Positions 10,784 through 16,538 of a stretch of DNA of 64,000 bases are shown piece after piece. The notes below the pieces were generated by a model that saw only the letters and a list, made by a program, of their open reading frames with translations, did not search any database and was not told the DNA's origin. The translations under genes were made by a program, and so were the position numbers. This DNA is from Ostreococcus lucimarinus (taxonomy: Eukaryota), in NCBI GenBank assembly GCA_000092065.1, contig CP000601.1. One strand, 5' to 3'. Position 1 is the first letter of the stretch. Each line of letters starts with the position of its first letter.

Positions 10784-11119
10784 TCAGTGCACGATTTTCG
10801 CCCCCCCCCCGAACGCCCCCTTTCTCGCGAACCGCACCGCCATCGGCTCGACGACCCCTTCCCCTCGCGCCCACGCGCCCTCGCGCGCCTGTCTCGCCCC
10901 CTGCAGCGCCCACAGCACGACGCTCGCGATCGCCAACACGACGAGTTTCCACAGTTTGTTTCGCAACCGCTGCTTCATGACGCTCGGCGTCGGCGCGCCC
11001 ACGCGCACGACGTCGCCGTGCAGCAGATCGCGCACGCGCGGATGGAGCACGTCTTCGGGATCGACGCCGAGCGTCGACGGCGTCGCGCGCGCGCCCGCCC
11101 GCGTCAGCGACGTCGGCAT
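10784..11119 (-). CDS. Possible small single-TM protein (111 aa) between the NSA1 and HslU genes
   Basis: The ORF contains a clear hydrophobic helix, LWKLVVLAIASVVLWAL. It has no recognisable homology and could be a chance GC-driven ORF. Confidence 0.2.
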   Translation of the reverse strand: MPTSLTRAGARATPSTLGVDPEDVLHPRVRDLLHGDVVRVGAPTPSVMKQRLRNKLWKLVVLAIASVVLWALQGARQAREGAWARGEGVVEPMAVRFARKGAFGGGAKIVH

Positions 11120-11130
11120 GGCGCCATTGA

Positions 11131-11253
11131 GTGACGCGGGCGTCTCGACGCGTCGCGATGTCCCGGCGCGCGTTCGGCGCGCTCGCGCGCGCGTGGCGCG
11201 CCGCGCGCGACGCGGACGTCGACCAACGATGCGCCGCGACGCTCGCCGCGCGC

Positions 11254-11293
<40 letters not shown>

Positions 11294-12786
11294 AAACGCA
11301 CCGCGGCGAGCGACCCTACGGCGCGACGGGACCGTCGCGCGTCGCGAAACCGCCGAAACCGCCCACGAAGCGGTCGACGATCGACGTGACGATCGACGTG
11401 ACGCCCGCGGACGCGCGCGACGGGCGAGACGCGAGGGAAGAGGACGGACGCGGTGGGTTGACGCCCGAACGCGCGACGGCGCTGCTGGACAAGCACATCG
11501 TCGGACAGACGGAGGCGAAGCGGGCGTGCGCGGTGGCGCTTCGGAATCGATGGCGGCGACACAGGATCGGGAAACCGATGCGAGACGAAATCGTGCCGAA
11601 AAATATCCTGATGATCGGCCCGACGGGGTGCGGGAAGACGGAAATCGCGCGACGATTGGCGAAGATTACGGATTCGCCCTTCGTAAAGGTGGAGGCGACG
11701 AAATTTACAGAGGTTGGATTTCACGGGCGAGACGTCGATCAGATCATTCGAGATTTGGTGGATAATGGGATCGCGGTGACGAAACAAAAGATGCGCGCGA
11801 AGTTTGAAAAGTTTGTGGAGGAGTTGATCGAGAATAAAATTTTAGATTTTGTGTGCGGGGAGGGGGCCAACGACGAGACGCGCGAGGCGTTTCGGACGTT
11901 GTATCGAGACGGTACTTTGGACGATCGCACGATCGAGGTTGAGTTGCCGGATTCGGGTGGGCAAAACATGAAGATCGACCCGAGCGGGGGACCGATTCCC
12001 ATTCACGAATTAGTCATCAAGGTTGATAAATTGTTCGGAAACCGCAAGAGCACGTCCAAGCGTAAAATGACGGTGGCCGAGTGCAAACCTTTGATCGAAG
12101 AGATGGAGTTTGACAACTTGTTGTCCGCGGAGACGATCGCGAAAGAGGCGATCACGGCGGTGGAGAACGATGGGATCGTGTTCATAGATGAGATTGATAA
12201 GATTGTGTCGTCGAGCGATTACCGTCACGGCGCCGACGCGAGCTCCGAGGGCGTGCAGCGCGACTTGTTGCCGATCATCGAAGGCTCCGTCGTGAGCACG
12301 AAGCACGGCAACGTCAACACCGACCACATCTTGTTCATAGCCTCCGGAGCGTTCCACAGCGCGAAACCGAGCGACATGCTCGCCGAGTTACAGGGACGAT
12401 TGCCCATTCGCGTCGAGCTCAAAGGTTTGACCGAGCGCGACTTGTACCGAATTTTAACCGAACCGGAGATGAACATGATCGCGCAACAAAAGGCGCTCAT
12501 GAAGACGGAAGGGATCGATTTAGAGTTCACGAACGAAGCGATCGAGCACATCGCGAGCATCGCGGCCAAGGTGAACAAAACGGTCGACAACATCGGCGCC
12601 AGACGACTGCACACCGTGCTCGAACGCATCGTCGAGGATTTGTCGTTTGACGCGCCCGAGAGATATGCGAAATTCGTCGCGGCGGGCGGCAAAGGCGAGC
12701 TGCAGGTCAAGATTGGCGTCAAAGATATCGACGACGCGATCGGCAACATGCTCAAGCAAGAGGACTTGAGTCGATTTGTACTTTAG
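11131..12786 (+). CDS. hslU: HslU (ClpY) AAA+ ATPase subunit of the HslVU protease, bacterial type, with an organelle-style N-terminal extension
   Basis: Unmistakable HslU signatures: HIVGQTEAKRA, Walker A ILMIGPTGCGKTEIARRLAK, the I-domain, IVFIDEIDKI, GAFHSAKPSDMLAELQGRLPIRVEL, and RRLHTVLERIVEDLSFDAPE. The N-terminal roughly 100 aa are Arg/Ala-rich with a (T)13 run encoded by (ACG/GAC)n at about 11248-11293. Confidence 0.9.
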
Positions 12787-12831: not shown

Positions 12832-13691
12832 TCAGTCATCCATTTTACTACCATCGTCTGGATCGTTGCCCGTCGGCGACGGCGGCTTCGCGCCTTCGTC
12901 CATCGCTCGCGTCGGTCGCACGTAGCTGCTCTTATACCGGCGACCGCGTCGCGCGACGCATTCGTACAATCGCGTTTGGTACGAATCCGCGTCCTCTCGT
13001 TCGTCGCGCAGCAACTTGGTCGAGGCGGCGTACGCGCCGCCTGCCCGGCATTCAAAGCACACGATGCGCGTCGAACACCCCGCGTTCTTGCCCTCCCCGT
13101 GGATCGGAGGAAACACCTCGGGCGGTTGGCACCGTCCGTGAAACATTCTTTCGCACCCGACGCACTCGTGCAGCAAATCCGCCACCGTTCCGATGGACGT
13201 TTGAATCCCCCCCCCGCAGTTCCCGCACGTCCCGCGCGTCAAATCCTCCTCGTGCGCCGCCTCGTACTCCAAAAAATAATTCTCATACGCCGTCAGCATG
13301 CGATTCCCGCAATCCGTCATCGTGTGATTTTCGTAGTGATTAAACATGTTTCTGAAAATCTCCGCCGCCTTGATTCGCTCCTTCGCGCTCGTCCTCGACG
13401 CGAACCCCCCCAGCGAGCACACCTGTCGGTACAGGTGCAAGCAATCCAGCGGCGCACCCGTGCGCCCGACGACTCGATCCAAATTCGCCCAGCACTGCTC
13501 CCAATCCCGTCCTCGCTCCTGATGAAACCGCATCAAATCAAACGTGAAATCCTCCAGCGAGCACGCCGCCAGCGCCGGTCGTCGCCACGCCGCGCTCGCG
13601 ATCGTCCCGCGTCCGCGGCGCGTCCACGCCGGGCAAAACCCATCGTCGCCGTCGTCCCGTCCCGTCGGCGTCTTCACCGCCGTCGTCGCCG

Positions 13692-13728
<37 letters not shown>

Positions 13729-13818
13729 GCGCGTCCCGTCGTCGTCGTCGTCGCCGTCGATCGCGGTCGTCGTCGCGCCCGCGCGTCGCGCGTCGTCGTC
13801 GCGCGTCGCGGCGTCCAT
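12832..13818 (-). CDS. ARID (BRIGHT) domain plus PHD-finger protein
   Basis: ARID core: LDCLHLYRQVCSLGGFASRTSAKERIKAAEIF. A Cys/His-rich C-terminal finger follows: CGNCGGG...HECVGCERMFHGRCQPP...CFECR. The N-terminus carries poly-Thr and poly-Asp runs encoded by (GTC)n on the + strand. Confidence 0.6.
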
Positions 13819-13927
13819 CGTCGTCGTCGCCGACGCGACGCGCGACGCGCGTCGTCGTCGCGCGATGGCGTCGCGATTCGACGCGCGCGCGCGTCACATC
13901 GGCGCGCCGATCGAGGCGTCGAATCCG

Positions 13928-16538
13928 ATGTTCGGCACGCTCGGAAGCCTGTTCGCGAGCGGACCGAGGCTGAAGTACGACCTCGGGCGCGAGTTCGCGT
14001 GTCGCGCGTTCGGCGTGTGGACGCACCGACGCGGGACGTGCCAGGTGCGACGAACGAACGCGACGCGACGCGAAGGATGAGTGAATGAATGAATGAATGA
14101 ATGAATGAATGAATGAATGAATGCGTCTGATGACGATGATTGACGAAAGGAAACGCGCGCAGGAGACGGGAGAGGAACACTCGATATTCACGTTTCACGC
14201 GGACGTGAATCGCGATCAACAGCGGGTGAGGCTGGCGAAGAACGGGGCGCGACGGATGAAGACGCTTCGACACCCAAACGTGCTGCTGGTGAAGGACGTG
14301 ATCGAGATCGAGAGCGGGAACGAGCTGACGATACACGTCGTGACGGAGGCGGTGACGCCGCTGGAGGCGCACCTGCGGGAGGCGCCGATCGGGGGGGGGG
14401 GGAACGGGCAGAGGGATGATTATTTTTCGCTCGGGGTGCGGGAAATCGCGACGGCGGTGGCGTTCTTGAGCAACGATTGTAAGCTCGTGCACGGGGGGGT
14501 CGGGCTGAGCGCGGTGGTGGTGACGGAGCGGTTAGACTGGAAGTTACACGGGTTCGATCTGTGCAGCGAGCTGGAGAGCATCGGACACGGGGTGAACGGG
14601 GACGCGGCGCTCATTCGCGGGGCGTATCTGGTGCCGGATCAATACAAGCCGGAGGAGTACAGAAGGGGAGACTGGGTGATCATTCCCGAAGGGCCGCCGT
14701 GGGCGATCGACGCGTGGGGGTTGGGATGCTTGATTCAGGAGGTGTACAGCGGCGGCGCTCTGCGCGGGACGGACCAGTTGCGCGAGATTGATCAAATCCC
14801 AAAGTCGCTGCTGAAGGATTATCAGCGTCTTCTCGGCTCGCAACCTGCGCGACGGTACAACCCGAAGAAGCTCATCGAGAACAAAGAGGCGTTTTCGAAC
14901 AAGCTCGTGGAGACGATCACGTTCATCAACAACTTGGCGTTGAAGGATTCGATTGAAAAGGAACGATTCTTCGGCCACCTGCCGCGCGTGTTGGAGCAAC
15001 TCGCCCAGGCGCCCGTGCAAAAGAAAATCTTACCCATGTTGTGCGACGCGCTGTCGTTTAATCAAGCGCCGCATCAAGCCATCTTACCCATGCTCCTCGC
15101 CGCAGAGGAGGTTCCGCGCGATCAGTATCAAAAACTCGTCATCCCGACGGTCATGAAGCTTTACGAGGCGCCGGATAAGATGATTCGACTGGATTTGTTG
15201 GAAAATTTGACGCGATATGCCGACCACGTGCCGGATGCCATGATGGATGATCCGTTGTACGAACGTCTACAGACCGGCTTCGCGCACAACGACTCCAACG
15301 TGCGCGAGATGACGCTGAAGGGGGCGCTGACGTTGGTGCCGCGACTCTCCGAGCGCGTCATCACGGCGTCGCTTTTGAGGCATTTGAGCAAGTTGCAGAT
15401 TGATGAAGATCCGGCGATTCGCGCCAACACGACGATTTGCCTAGGAAACATCGCAAAGTATTTGAGTCAAGCGACGGCGAAGCGGGTGTTGCTGAACGCG
15501 TTCACAAGATCGCTCAAGGATGGATTTCCGCCCGCGCGACTGGCGGGTCTCATGGCGCTCGAGCACACGACGCAATATTATGAACCGTTAGAAGTGAGCC
15601 AGCGGTTGATCCCAGCGCTCGCGCCGCTCATGACGGACATCGAAAAAGACGTGCGAACGCGCGCGTTCACCGTACTTGAGTTGTACGTGCAAGGGTTAAA
15701 AGGGCACTCAGAGGCGCTCGAACTCGGCCCCGAAGCGGCGGCGGCGCACGTCGAGGCGCAACAACAGAAAGGGCACGCGAACGCGGCTAAACGCGCGGCA
15801 AACATGCTTTCGTGGGCTGTGAACATGGCAGCGACGAAAATAGGCGGACCAGATGACGCGCACGAACCGGTTGATCTTCAGAATGAACGATTGATGGCGA
15901 AATCATTCAGTTCGGCGGCGCCGCCGCCGAAGTTGTACGGCGAGAGCCCGCGAACTTCGACGCAAAACACGCCGGCGACGTCTCTTGGACCATCGCCTGC
16001 GAAAGCCATGACATCAAACGCGTACGACTCGAGTCGCCGAACGATCGAGGCGGCGGCACAAAAGGTGAGCGCGCTGTCCATGGGGAACGAAGACTTGGAG
16101 GACGACGACGACGACGGATGGGGCGATTTAGACGTCGTCGATCCCGCGGAAGAAGCCGCCCGCGCGCGATTGAACTCACGCGCGGGTTCGAGCGCGCGAG
16201 CGCCGATGAAAACATCCATACCCAAAGTGGCCAGTCACGAGAGCGATGGTTGGGGTGACGACGACCTGTTCGAGGACATGAGCGCTCCGGCGCCGCCGAA
16301 ACCGTCGGCGAAGCCGCCGTCCCAGGCGCCGCGCGCGTCGTCGGGATTCAGCGGTGCGCGGTCGATGGGGGCGACCGGCCACGCTAGTATCGGTGGTGTG
16401 CGCCGTCCACCGTCGAGTGGATCGCTCGGGGGCGGCGTGCGCTCGATGGGAGGCGCCAAACCGCCGCCGATGAAGCTCGGCGGCGCCAAGACGTTGTCGA
16501 AGAACGACATCGATCTCGAGGCCATGCTCAACGGATAG
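13928..16538 (+). CDS. SCYL1: SCY1-like pseudokinase/HEAT-repeat protein (SCYL1/NTKL); two exons: 13928..14044 and 14163..16538
   Basis: ORF 14121..16538 matches SCYL1 from SIFTF...RMKTLRHPNVL...HVVTEAVTPL through the HEAT repeats to the C-terminal PMKLGGAKTL. It lacks the first roughly 40 aa. That missing N-terminus, MFGTLGSLFASGPRLKYDLG...FGVWTHRRGTCQ, lies in another frame at 13928..14044 and matches plant SCYL1 (MFKFLKGVV...LKDLPYNIG...WGSWSHFRGTS). A phase-0 intron at 14045..14162 (GTGCGA...CTGAC-like...CGCAG) joins the two pieces in frame. Confidence 0.8.
14079..14123. repeat. (TGAA)n / (GAAT)10 tetranucleotide microsatellite inside the SCYL1 intron
   Basis: Direct reading: gaatgaatgaatgaatgaatgaatgaatgaatgaatgaat. 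Confidence 0.9.

What the first reader, a model, noticed from the sequence alone, without database searches (positions are those of the whole stretch)
11131..12786. Bacterial-type HslU (ClpY) ATPase encoded in a eukaryotic nuclear context with a long poly-Thr, Arg-rich N-terminal extension
- The mature part is a textbook HslU with all AAA+ and I-domain motifs.
- It sits among unmistakably eukaryotic nuclear genes (ABCE1, importin, TAF2) and shares their GC3 codon bias.
- It has a roughly 100-aa presequence that includes a 13-Thr run.
- HslVU is sporadic in eukaryotes, where it is mitochondrial in kinetoplastids, apicomplexans and a few algae.
- No HslV is present in this window.
- The partner gene and the organelle in which the complex acts are both unknown.
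Basis: partly seen in the sequence, partly recalled or inferred. Interest (0 to 1): 0.5.

Follow-up and report, generated by a model that had tools for sequence, protein, structure and literature searches.

The report
Ordinary mitochondrial-type HslU of Ostreococcus-like alga
This is the normal nuclear gene for the ATPase half (HslU) of a bacterial-style protease that a tiny marine green alga inherited with its mitochondria. Its partner gene HslV sits elsewhere in related genomes and is already annotated there, so the finding is real but ordinary.

Summary
Window 11158..12786 (+) encodes a 542-aa protein whose residues 101-542 are a complete HslU (TIGR00390, 517 bits against a cutoff of 362; H. 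influenzae HslU E=1.5e-127). It lies among eukaryotic nuclear genes and shares their codon usage.

Corrections:
- The start is the ATG at 11158, not the GTG at 11131.
- The Thr run is 12 residues, not 13. It is an (ACG)n microsatellite that varies in length between near-identical metagenome copies.

The claim that the partner and organelle are both unknown is not supported.
- HslV is absent from the window. It is present and already annotated in Ostreococcus tauri, O. lucimarinus and Bathycoccus, on eukaryotic contigs unlinked to HslU.
- In an NJ tree, eukaryote-type HslU is monophyletic (200/200) and groups with Alphaproteobacteria (190/200). No cyanobacterium is among the 80 closest bacterial loci.
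- The N-terminus is basic and amphipathic. It ends in a conserved R-x-(Y/F)|(G/A) motif that fits a mitochondrial processing site.
- HslVU is experimentally mitochondrial in other eukaryotes.

Best reading: a nuclear-encoded, mitochondrion-imported HslU that works with HslV. This is already known and of low interest. One side note: all eukaryote-type HslUs examined carry GFHG in the pore loop, where all 80 bacterial ones carry GYVG.

The parts
11158..12786 (+). HslU (ClpY) coding sequence: single exon, 542 aa plus stop codon
   Evidence: ORF. The ATG start is shared with 98-99% identical metagenome proteins. TIGR00390 scores 517 bits.
11158..11208 (+). N-terminal basic amphipathic segment (res 1-17, MSRRAFGALARAWRAAR): the putative core of a mitochondrial targeting signal
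   Evidence: There is no acidic residue before position 18. Net charge of residues 1-20 is +3. The helical hydrophobic moment is 0.64-0.80. Orthologues show the same character despite different sequences. The low-confidence AF2 model predicts a helix at residues 3-27. Targeting itself is inferred.
11158..11319 (+). Putative cleavable presequence (res 1-54). The boundary is inferred.
   Evidence: The variable region ends at a conserved R-x-(Y/F)|(G/A/T) motif. The assignment is an inference from the published MPP R-3 consensus, recalled from my own knowledge. It is not tested.
11257..11292 (+). (ACG)12 microsatellite encoding 12 consecutive Thr (T34-T45)
   Evidence: Located. Its length and purity vary among near-identical copies: 12, 11 or 10 Thr, Pro- or Met-interrupted versions, and one 7-aa-shorter variant. 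CGA/TCG/CGT arrays recur at least 9 times in the window.
11311..11325 (+). R52-P-Y54|G55-A56: candidate mitochondrial processing peptidase site (R-3 type)
   Evidence: Equivalent motifs occur in orthologues: RAYGS, RGFAA, RGFTA, RGFLT and REFHA, and RGFAS in Bathycoccus. numbering is one too high for the window because I mistyped the sequence there.
11320..11457 (+). Poorly conserved linker (res 55-100): a Lys/Pro-rich patch, a short hydrophobic IDVTIDV element and an acidic patch
   Evidence: The pattern is conserved among Ostreococcus-like orthologues only. AF2 predicts no secondary structure here, with pLDDT below 40.
11458..12783 (+). HslU core (res 101-542): AAA+ large domain with inserted I-domain, then the small domain
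   Evidence: TIGR00390 positions 1-441 of 441 match. 1g3i residues 4-444 align continuously.
11617..11640 (+). Walker A, GPTGCGKT (res 154-161)
   Evidence: The Cys variant is shared by 16 of the 17 eukaryote-type sequences and by 12 of 28 Alphaproteobacteria.
11716..11727 (+). Pore-1 loop, GFHG (res 187-190), in place of the bacterial GYVG
   Evidence: All 17 eukaryote-type HslUs have GFHG and all 80 bacterial ones have GYVG. F188 and H189 are invariant in the 33-sequence alignment.
12181..12201 (+). Walker B, FIDEIDK (res 342-348)
12364..12405 (+). KPSDMLAELQGRLP (res 403-416): the Pro equivalent to E. coli P315 and the Arg-finger region
   Evidence: P315 is retained. E. coli P320 is Ala in all eukaryote-type sequences.
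12595..12615 (+). Sensor-2, GARRLHT (res 480-486)
12760..12783 (+). C-terminal HslV-docking tail, EDLSRFVL (res 535-542)
   Evidence: It matches the E. coli tail EDLSRFIL at 7 of 8 positions. The E. coli tail peptide activates even Leishmania HslV (PMC6429459).

Best explanation
The gene is the nuclear copy of HslU (ClpY) in an Ostreococcus-like prasinophyte (Mamiellophyceae). It descends from the alphaproteobacterial ancestor of mitochondria.

Proposed mechanism, with the basis for each step:
1. The precursor is made in the cytosol and imported into the mitochondrial matrix through its basic amphipathic N-terminus (inferred).
2. It is probably cut after Y54 at an R-x-Y|G site. That would remove the polymorphic poly-Thr tract (inferred).
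3. The mature protein forms an AAA+ hexamer. It uses ATP to unfold substrates selected by the I-domain and threads them through the pore (by homology).
4. Its C-terminal EDLSRFVL tails dock into and open the HslV dodecamer, a Thr-protease encoded by a separate nuclear gene (by homology). HslV is shown here in relatives, not in this exact genome.

The likely role is protein quality control and regulated turnover in the matrix.
For: - Identity.
- Native nuclear gene: eukaryotic neighbours and matching codon usage. The synteny WD40 / small ORF / HslU / ARID recurs on dozens of metagenome contigs of up to 130 kb.
- Ancestry: the 80 best bacterial loci are 44-54% identical. By tool rank, 8 of the top 9 loci are named alphaproteobacterial taxa. 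In an NJ tree of 97 sequences, eukaryote-type HslU is monophyletic in 200/200 bootstraps and groups with Alphaproteobacteria in 190/200.
- Partner: HslV is present in O. tauri, O. lucimarinus, Bathycoccus and many unnamed Mamiellophyceae lineages. These copies keep Thr1, Asp17 and Lys33 (read from the O. tauri sequence printed) and carry their own presequence ending (R/K/H/S)-A|TT. The bacterial HslVs nearest to the O. tauri protein are all alphaproteobacterial.
- Tail competence: EDLSRFVL is almost identical to the E. coli tail, which activates heterologous HslV (PMC6429459).
- Targeting features.
- Experimental precedent for a mitochondrial location: T. brucei (PMC2277460), the Diplonema mitoproteome (PMC12699882) and the Leishmania work (PMC6429459). 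Chlamydomonas HSLU/HSLV are listed as mitochondrial (bioRxiv 10.64898/2026.04.02.716084).
Against: - No localisation experiment exists for any Mamiellophyceae HslU, and no trained targeting predictor could be run.
- Green-algal mitochondrial and plastid transit peptides are hard to tell apart by composition.
- Chlamydomonas HSLU2 was 75-fold enriched in the proximity proteome of the chloroplast protein LCP1 (bioRxiv 10.1101/2025.08.22.671721).
- I could not tie one particular HslV allele to the exact population this window comes from.
- In T. brucei the Phe-tailed HslU1 did not activate HslV in vitro (PMC4106860), although it did in Leishmania (PMC6429459).
Confidence: 0.85

Rival explanations
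1. The protein is plastid-targeted, or dual-targeted to plastid and mitochondrion, and acts in the chloroplast stroma.
For: Chlamydomonas HSLU2 is 75-fold enriched in the proxiome of the chloroplast protein LCP1, and two predictors call it chloroplastic (bioRxiv 10.1101/2025.08.22.671721). The extension is long (100 aa) and rich in Thr, Ala and Arg, which would also suit a green-algal transit peptide.
Against: The ancestry is alphaproteobacterial, and no cyanobacterial HslU appears among the 80 closest loci. The first 17 residues are amphipathic and basic, and a conserved R-x-(Y/F)| motif fits an MPP site. Every experimental localisation of HslVU found in the searched papers is mitochondrial. 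Which Chlamydomonas paralogue is orthologous to this gene was not determined.
Confidence: 0.1
2. The protein is an HslV-independent unfoldase or chaperone, like the kinetoplastid HslU1 that fails to activate HslV in vitro. A second HslU paralogue would then serve HslV.
For: The tail carries Phe and the P315-equivalent is Pro, the state Sung & Song assign to HslU1 rather than to the HslV-activating HslU2 (PMC4106860). Chlamydomonas and kinetoplastids each have two HslUs. I could not search for a second paralogue in Mamiellophyceae.
Against: Phe plus Pro is also the state of E. coli HslU and of most gammaproteobacterial HslUs; many other bacteria there carry Tyr. All bacterial HslUs are assumed here to work with HslV. 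The tail matches the E. coli activating octapeptide at 7 of 8 positions. Phe-type peptides (E. coli, LmHslU1) activate Leishmania HslV (PMC6429459). HslV is retained throughout the clade.
Confidence: 0.05
3. The gene is bacterial contamination or a recent horizontal transfer, not an ancestral organellar gene.
For: None beyond the bacterial family assignment.
Against: The gene is flanked on both sides by eukaryotic genes on the same contig, with the same codon usage. The same locus recurs on many independent metagenome contigs. The best bacterial identity is only 54%, against 63-85% to other eukaryote-type HslUs. Eukaryote monophyly is 200/200.
Confidence: 0.01

Closest known systems
Bacterial HslU/ClpY (E. 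coli P0A6H5; H. influenzae, PDB 1g3i)
   Same: The architecture is the same along the full length: AAA+ module with I-domain, all nucleotide motifs and the C-terminal HslV-docking tail. TIGR00390 scores above its cutoff.
   Different: This copy is nuclear and monocistronic, not in an hslVU operon. All 70 bacterial loci in which HslV was detected carry hslV just upstream. It has a 100-aa N-terminal extension, a GFHG pore loop instead of GYVG, and Ala at the E. coli P320 position.
HslU/HslV of sequenced Mamiellophyceae (O. lucimarinus 'ClpYQ (HslUV)-type protease' annotation; O. tauri; Bathycoccus prasinos CAL6373018.1)
   Same: These are orthologues, 71-85% identical over the full length. They share the type of extension, the RxF/Y motif, GFHG and the tail.
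   Different: The differences are at species level, in the presequence and the Thr tract. The exact 542-aa sequence is not on record. The closest records are metagenomic (99% protein identity; 99.5% DNA identity).
Kinetoplastid mitochondrial HslVU (TbHslV, TbHslU1, TbHslU2)
   Same: A nuclear-encoded, presequence-bearing bacterial-type protease that coexists with the 26S proteasome (PMC2277460).
   Different: Kinetoplastids have two HslUs of about 40% mutual identity, and the HslV-activating one carries a Tyr tail and Thr315 (PMC4106860). The window protein has the Phe/Pro state. The kDNA-replication role is lineage-specific and cannot be transferred. Kinetoplastid HslV is divergent: a T. brucei HslV query retrieved only Euglenozoa and then alphaproteobacteria.
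Chlamydomonas HSLU1/HSLU2/HSLV1
   Same: A green-lineage HslVU system, assumed to be mitochondrial.
   Different: Orthology to HSLU1 or to HSLU2 was not resolved here. HSLU2 has a proximity-labelling hint of a chloroplast location.
ClpX
   Same: It is the nearest other AAA+ unfoldase family. In bacteria it shares the GYVG-type pore loop.
   Different: The ClpX models score only 175-202 bits against cutoffs of 359-371, and in three separate pieces. The window protein has no zinc-binding N-domain, and it has an I-domain in its place.

Membership tests
HslU (TIGR00390 equivalog) | Full-length match to the family model above the curated cutoff | tested here: met
   517.5 bits against 362.45. Model positions 1-441 of 441 match residues 110-551 of the GTG-start ORF.
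HslU (TIGR00390 equivalog) | AAA+ catalytic motifs: Walker A, Walker B, sensor-1, Arg finger, sensor-2 | tested here: met
   GPTGCGKT, FIDEIDK, FIASGAF, ELQGR and GARRLHT align with those of the 80 bacterial HslUs.
HslU (TIGR00390 equivalog) | I-domain inserted in the AAA+ large domain | tested here: met
   Continuous alignment across H. influenzae HslU residues 4-444, including the I-domain region. The model is covered without a break.
HslU (TIGR00390 equivalog) | Pore-1 loop with an aromatic residue between two glycines (bacterial GYVG) | tested here: met
   GFHG: both glycines and the aromatic residue are kept. E. coli Y91F is functional (PMC10743992). Val to His at the next position departs from all 80 bacterial sequences but is shared by all eukaryote-type sequences. 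Its effect is unknown.
HslU (TIGR00390 equivalog) | C-terminal tail that docks into HslV (E. coli EDLSRFIL) | tested here: met
   EDLSRFVL.
HslVU two-component protease | HslV partner encoded in the same genome | not testable with these tools
   Only 64 kb of this genome is available, and it holds no HslV. HslV is present in O. tauri, O. lucimarinus, Bathycoccus and at least 6 unnamed Ostreococcus-like lineages. No allele could be assigned to this exact population.
Eukaryotic organellar (mitochondrial) HslVU | Nuclear gene with an N-terminal targeting extension | tested here: met
   Eukaryotic flanks and codon usage. A 100-aa extension with a basic amphipathic start.
Eukaryotic organellar (mitochondrial) HslVU | Alphaproteobacterial ancestry | tested here: met
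   NJ bootstrap for eukaryotes plus Alphaproteobacteria is 190/200 and for eukaryote monophyly 200/200. The HslV tree agrees but is weaker, at 119/200. Caveats: a distance method and a similarity-selected bacterial sample.
Eukaryotic organellar (mitochondrial) HslVU | Protein located in mitochondria | not testable with these tools
   Only precedent from other eukaryotes is available (PMC2277460, PMC12699882), together with sequence features.
Kinetoplastid-type HslU2 | Tyr at the E. coli F441 position and Thr at the P315 position (PMC4106860) | tested here: not met
   The window protein has Phe (SRFVL) and Pro (KPSD). It is therefore not of the HslU2 type. It has the E. coli/HslU1-like state.
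ClpX | Family model above the curated cutoff | tested here: not met
   TIGR00382 scores 174.6 bits against 370.75, and NF003745 scores 201.7 against 359.

The most novel reading that the evidence does not exclude
In the green lineage this GFHG-type HslU may not be purely mitochondrial. It could be dual-targeted or plastid-resident and act in chloroplast proteostasis, as hinted by Chlamydomonas HSLU2 in the proxiome of a chloroplast protein. The clade-wide Tyr-Val to Phe-His change in the pore loop might then reflect an altered substrate grip. Nothing here excludes this reading, but the ancestry, the presequence features and all known localisations argue for the mitochondrion.
Probability: 0.1. 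Interest if true: 0.45.

Novelty: already known. Interest (0 to 1): 0.12.

Why it matters
It matters little. The gene adds one more orthologue, from an abundant but unnamed Ostreococcus-like population, to a system that is already described. HslU and HslV are known to be retained in many eukaryotes, including green algae, as mitochondrial proteins of bacterial descent.

The partner exists in the clade, the origin is alphaproteobacterial, and the poly-Thr tract is a neutral microsatellite.

Two by-products may interest specialists. First, GFHG replaces GYVG in the pore loop of every eukaryote-type HslU examined. Second, HslV persists in bryophytes, lycophytes and a fern, even though one paper states that plants lack it.

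Tried and rejected
- An exact look-up of the window's 542-aa HslU found nothing on record, so the source genome could not be named.
- IMG/VR scans for Mamiellophyceae-type HslV or HslU, in case host contigs had been misfiled as viral, returned only bacterial-like hslVU or ClpX-like hits.
- T. brucei HslV (PDB 4hnz, recovered) was used as a query for eukaryotic HslV. It returned only Euglenozoa and then alphaproteobacteria.
- The supplements of the Andalucia paper held no HslV sequence.
- What worked: an exhaustive search of 50%-identity representatives with an alphaproteobacterial HslV. I picked out hits with long N-terminal extensions, then ran a profile search with two of them.
- I tried to assign one HslV allele to the window's population by shared sample accession and by GC and tetranucleotide composition. 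Neither gave an assignment. Composition does not separate Ostreococcus lineages.
- There was a single same-sample coincidence in JGI Ga0209666: the HslU contig Ga0209666_1000114 and the HslV contig Ga0209666_1004613. That HslV is of a different, Micromonas-like type (68% identical to the P0497-type Ostreococcus HslV, 65% to O. tauri's; GC 0.66), so it was rejected as evidence.
- The AlphaFold2 model built from a 33-sequence alignment was poor (mean pLDDT 50.9, pTM 0.29). It was not used for fold search.
- No targeting predictor (TargetP, PredAlgo, MitoFates) is available. Only hand-computed features were used.
Full report
**What is there.** The ORF at 11131..12786 (+) is real. Its first codon is a GTG. 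In a eukaryote the usable start is the ATG at 11158, which gives 542 aa. The 98-99% identical proteins found in marine metagenomes begin the same way, with MSRRAFGALARA....

Residues 101-542 are a complete HslU:
- The NCBIfam equivalog model TIGR00390 matches end to end, positions 1-441 of 441, at 517.5 bits against a cutoff of 362.
- The best solved structure is H. influenzae HslU (1g3i), E=1.5e-127, aligned across residues 4-444 including the I-domain.
- ClpX models fall far below their cutoffs.
- Walker A (GPTGCGKT), Walker B (FIDEIDK), sensor-1, the ELQGR arginine-finger region, sensor-2 (GARRLHT) and the tail EDLSRFVL all line up with 80 bacterial HslUs.

**Context.** The neighbours are plainly eukaryotic nuclear genes. 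They include PPR proteins, a WD40 protein, an ARID protein, ABCE1/RLI, an ArfGAP-BAR-PH-ankyrin protein, an IPO5-type importin, an SNF2-RING helicase, a cGMP-type kinase, TAF2, a HECT ligase and Urb2.
- HslU has GC3 of 0.77 against 0.68-0.79 for the neighbours, and its codon-fraction correlation with them is 0.94.
- The arrangement WD40 / small ORF / HslU / ARID recurs on dozens of independent metagenome contigs of up to 130 kb. One of them is 99.5% identical in DNA across the gene.
- Contamination and assembly chimerism are therefore excluded.
- The closest named relatives are Bathycoccus prasinos (71%) and clusters that contain NCBI genome contigs of about 0.88 Mb (80-85%). The HslV family anchors the clade to Ostreococcus tauri and O. 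lucimarinus.
- The window comes from an Ostreococcus-like member of the Mamiellophyceae that I could not name. Its ABCE1 protein occurs in more than 1000 blocks of the metagenome index.

**The extension and the poly-Thr.** The extension is 100 aa long.
- The Thr run is 12 consecutive residues (T34-T45, nt 11257-11292) followed by K-T, not 13.
- It is a perfect (ACG)n microsatellite. TRF reports it as (CGA)13 in another phase.
- The same CGA/TCG/CGT class occurs at least nine more times in the window. One is a Thr run in the ARID gene next door.
- Among near-identical natural copies the tract has 12, 11 or 10 Thr, is interrupted by Pro or Met, or is largely missing.
- It is therefore a neutral, length-polymorphic repeat and not a signature of function.
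- The first 17 residues have no acidic residue, a net positive charge and a high helical hydrophobic moment. Orthologues keep that character while their sequences differ.
- At the end of the variable part, the orthologues in which the motif was detected (13 of the 20 scanned, plus looser RGF variants in others) share R-x-(Y/F) followed by G/A/T. In the window this is R52-P-Y54|G55-A. Elsewhere it reads RAYGS, RGFAA, RGFTA, RGFLT and REFHA, and RGFAS in Bathycoccus (window numbering corrected).
- From my own knowledge, this fits the R-3 type of mitochondrial processing-peptidase site. If it is used, the poly-Thr is removed on import. This step is inference.

**Origin.** A scan of one genome per bacterial and archaeal species found 598 relatives, and the best 80 are 44-54% identical.
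- By tool rank, 8 of the top 9 loci are named alphaproteobacterial taxa; the other is an unnamed metagenome contig. No cyanobacterium is among the 80.
- In a neighbour-joining tree (97 sequences, 426 columns) the 17 eukaryote-type HslUs form one clade in 200/200 bootstraps. That clade groups with Alphaproteobacteria in 190/200.

**The partner.** No HslV is in the window. In bacteria, hslV was detected in 70 of the 80 loci, and it lies upstream of hslU, immediately so in most.

Finding the algal HslV took three steps:
1. An exhaustive search of 50%-identity representatives with an alphaproteobacterial HslV.
2. Selection of hits that carry long N-terminal extensions.
3. A profile search with two of those hits.

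The result is a large green-lineage HslV family. It includes:
- O. tauri (XP_003080566.2/CEF98888.1; OUS47179.1, 'ATP-dependent protease HslVU')
- O. lucimarinus (XP_001418801.1, annotated 'ClpYQ (HslUV)-type protease, proteolytic subunit HSLV (ClpQ)')
- Bathycoccus prasinos
- at least six unnamed Ostreococcus-like lineages

These genes lie on eukaryotic contigs beside FKBP, PPR, ubiquitin-E1, MAPEG and fibrillin genes, and never beside HslU. They keep Thr1, Asp17 and Lys33, and they have their own presequence ending (R/K/H/S)-A|TT. So the partner exists throughout the clade and is already annotated.

What I could not do is tie one HslV allele to the very population the window comes from. Sample lists did not overlap. 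The one same-sample coincidence involved a Micromonas-like HslV.

**Literature.**
- HslU and HslV were reported in many eukaryotic supergroups, including plantae, in 2006 (Ruiz-Gonzalez & Marin, as cited in PMC2277460 and PMC4106860).
- HslVU is mitochondrial in T. brucei (PMC2277460) and in the Diplonema mitoproteome (PMC12699882). It is predicted to be mitochondrial in Andalucia (PMC7050145).
- Chlamydomonas has named HSLU1, HSLU2 and HSLV1 genes that are treated as mitochondrial (bioRxiv 10.64898/2026.04.02.716084). However, HSLU2 was strongly enriched near a chloroplast protein in one proximity-labelling study (bioRxiv 10.1101/2025.08.22.671721).
- The window protein has the Phe/Pro state at the positions that distinguish kinetoplastid HslU1 from HslU2 (PMC4106860). 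That is also the state of E. coli HslU and of most gammaproteobacterial HslUs.
- Phe-type tail peptides, including E. coli's, activate Leishmania HslV (PMC6429459).

**Verdict.** It is a bacterial-type HslU in a eukaryotic nuclear genome with a presequence. But the 'unknown partner, unknown organelle' framing does not hold. The gene is an ordinary, already-known component of the mitochondrial-type HslVU protease of green algae. The residual uncertainty is the untested localisation, with a small chance of plastid or dual targeting.

**Worth noting in passing.** Every eukaryote-type HslU examined has GFHG in the pore-1 loop, where every bacterial one has GYVG. A literature search for GFHG together with HslU found nothing. 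E. coli Y91F is functional (PMC10743992). The Val to His change is untested.

Noticed in passing
window 11716-11727 (HslU res 187-190): The pore-1 loop is GFHG in all 17 (33 in the larger alignment) eukaryote-type HslUs examined: Ostreococcus-like, Micromonas-like, Bathycoccus, Pavlova and others. All 80 bacterial HslUs have GYVG. E. coli P320 is also Ala in all eukaryote-type sequences. A full-text search for GFHG together with HslU found no paper.
   Followed up: partly
window 10784-11119 (-): A small ORF of 111 aa has a hydrophobic segment (LWKLVVLAIASVVLWAL) and lies head-to-head with HslU. Its ATG is only 38 bp from the HslU ATG. Between two sub-lineages it is far better conserved than the flanking intergenic DNA, and its only indel is in frame (12 nt). 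It has no Pfam hit. It may be a real small membrane-protein gene sharing a bidirectional promoter with HslU.
   Followed up: partly
window 11118-11120 (+): An out-of-frame ATG lies 40 nt upstream of the HslU start, and its reading frame runs to 11765. It is not conserved in the sister sub-lineage (ATC in L166). Some automatic gene calls (P0003, P0008) start there after a frame change in the repeat. It probably lies upstream of the transcription start.
   Followed up: partly
window 13643-13829, and the ARID gene 12832-13818 (-): A long imperfect (TCG)n array of about 66 copies overlaps the 5' part of the neighbouring ARID gene. It encodes Thr and Asp runs, including an 11-12 Thr run. CGA/TCG/CGT microsatellites are a general feature of this genome, with at least 10 arrays in 64 kb.
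   Followed up: partly
related proteins P0518, P0523, P0525, P0526, P0535, P0540, P0543, P0551, P0555, P0563: HslV homologues with N-terminal extensions occur in several streptophyte groups. Liverworts: Riccia and Marchantia. Mosses: Physcomitrium, Sphagnum and Ceratodon. Lycophytes: Selaginella and Diphasiastrum. A fern: Ceratopteris. Charophytes: Chara and Klebsormidium. PMC7050145 states that plants lack HslUV. The loss seems confined to seed plants.
   Followed up: no
P0616 / OUS47179.1 (O. tauri, 391 aa) versus P0615 (239 aa): One O. tauri annotation of HslV is 152 aa longer than the other. Because an FKBP gene lies directly upstream of HslV in related contigs, the long model may be a fusion of the two genes.
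   Followed up: no
L081-L085 (IMG/VR contigs IMGVR_UViG_2832490380_000009 and 3300035698_016860): Two contigs filed as viral carry a bacterial-type hslV next to hslU (57-63% and 41-49% identity to the queries). They may be prophage-flank or misclassified bacterial DNA.
   Followed up: no
window 14077-14123: A perfect-looking (ATGA)n tetranucleotide array of 11.8 copies lies in the intergenic region between the ARID gene and the HEAT-repeat gene.
   Followed up: no
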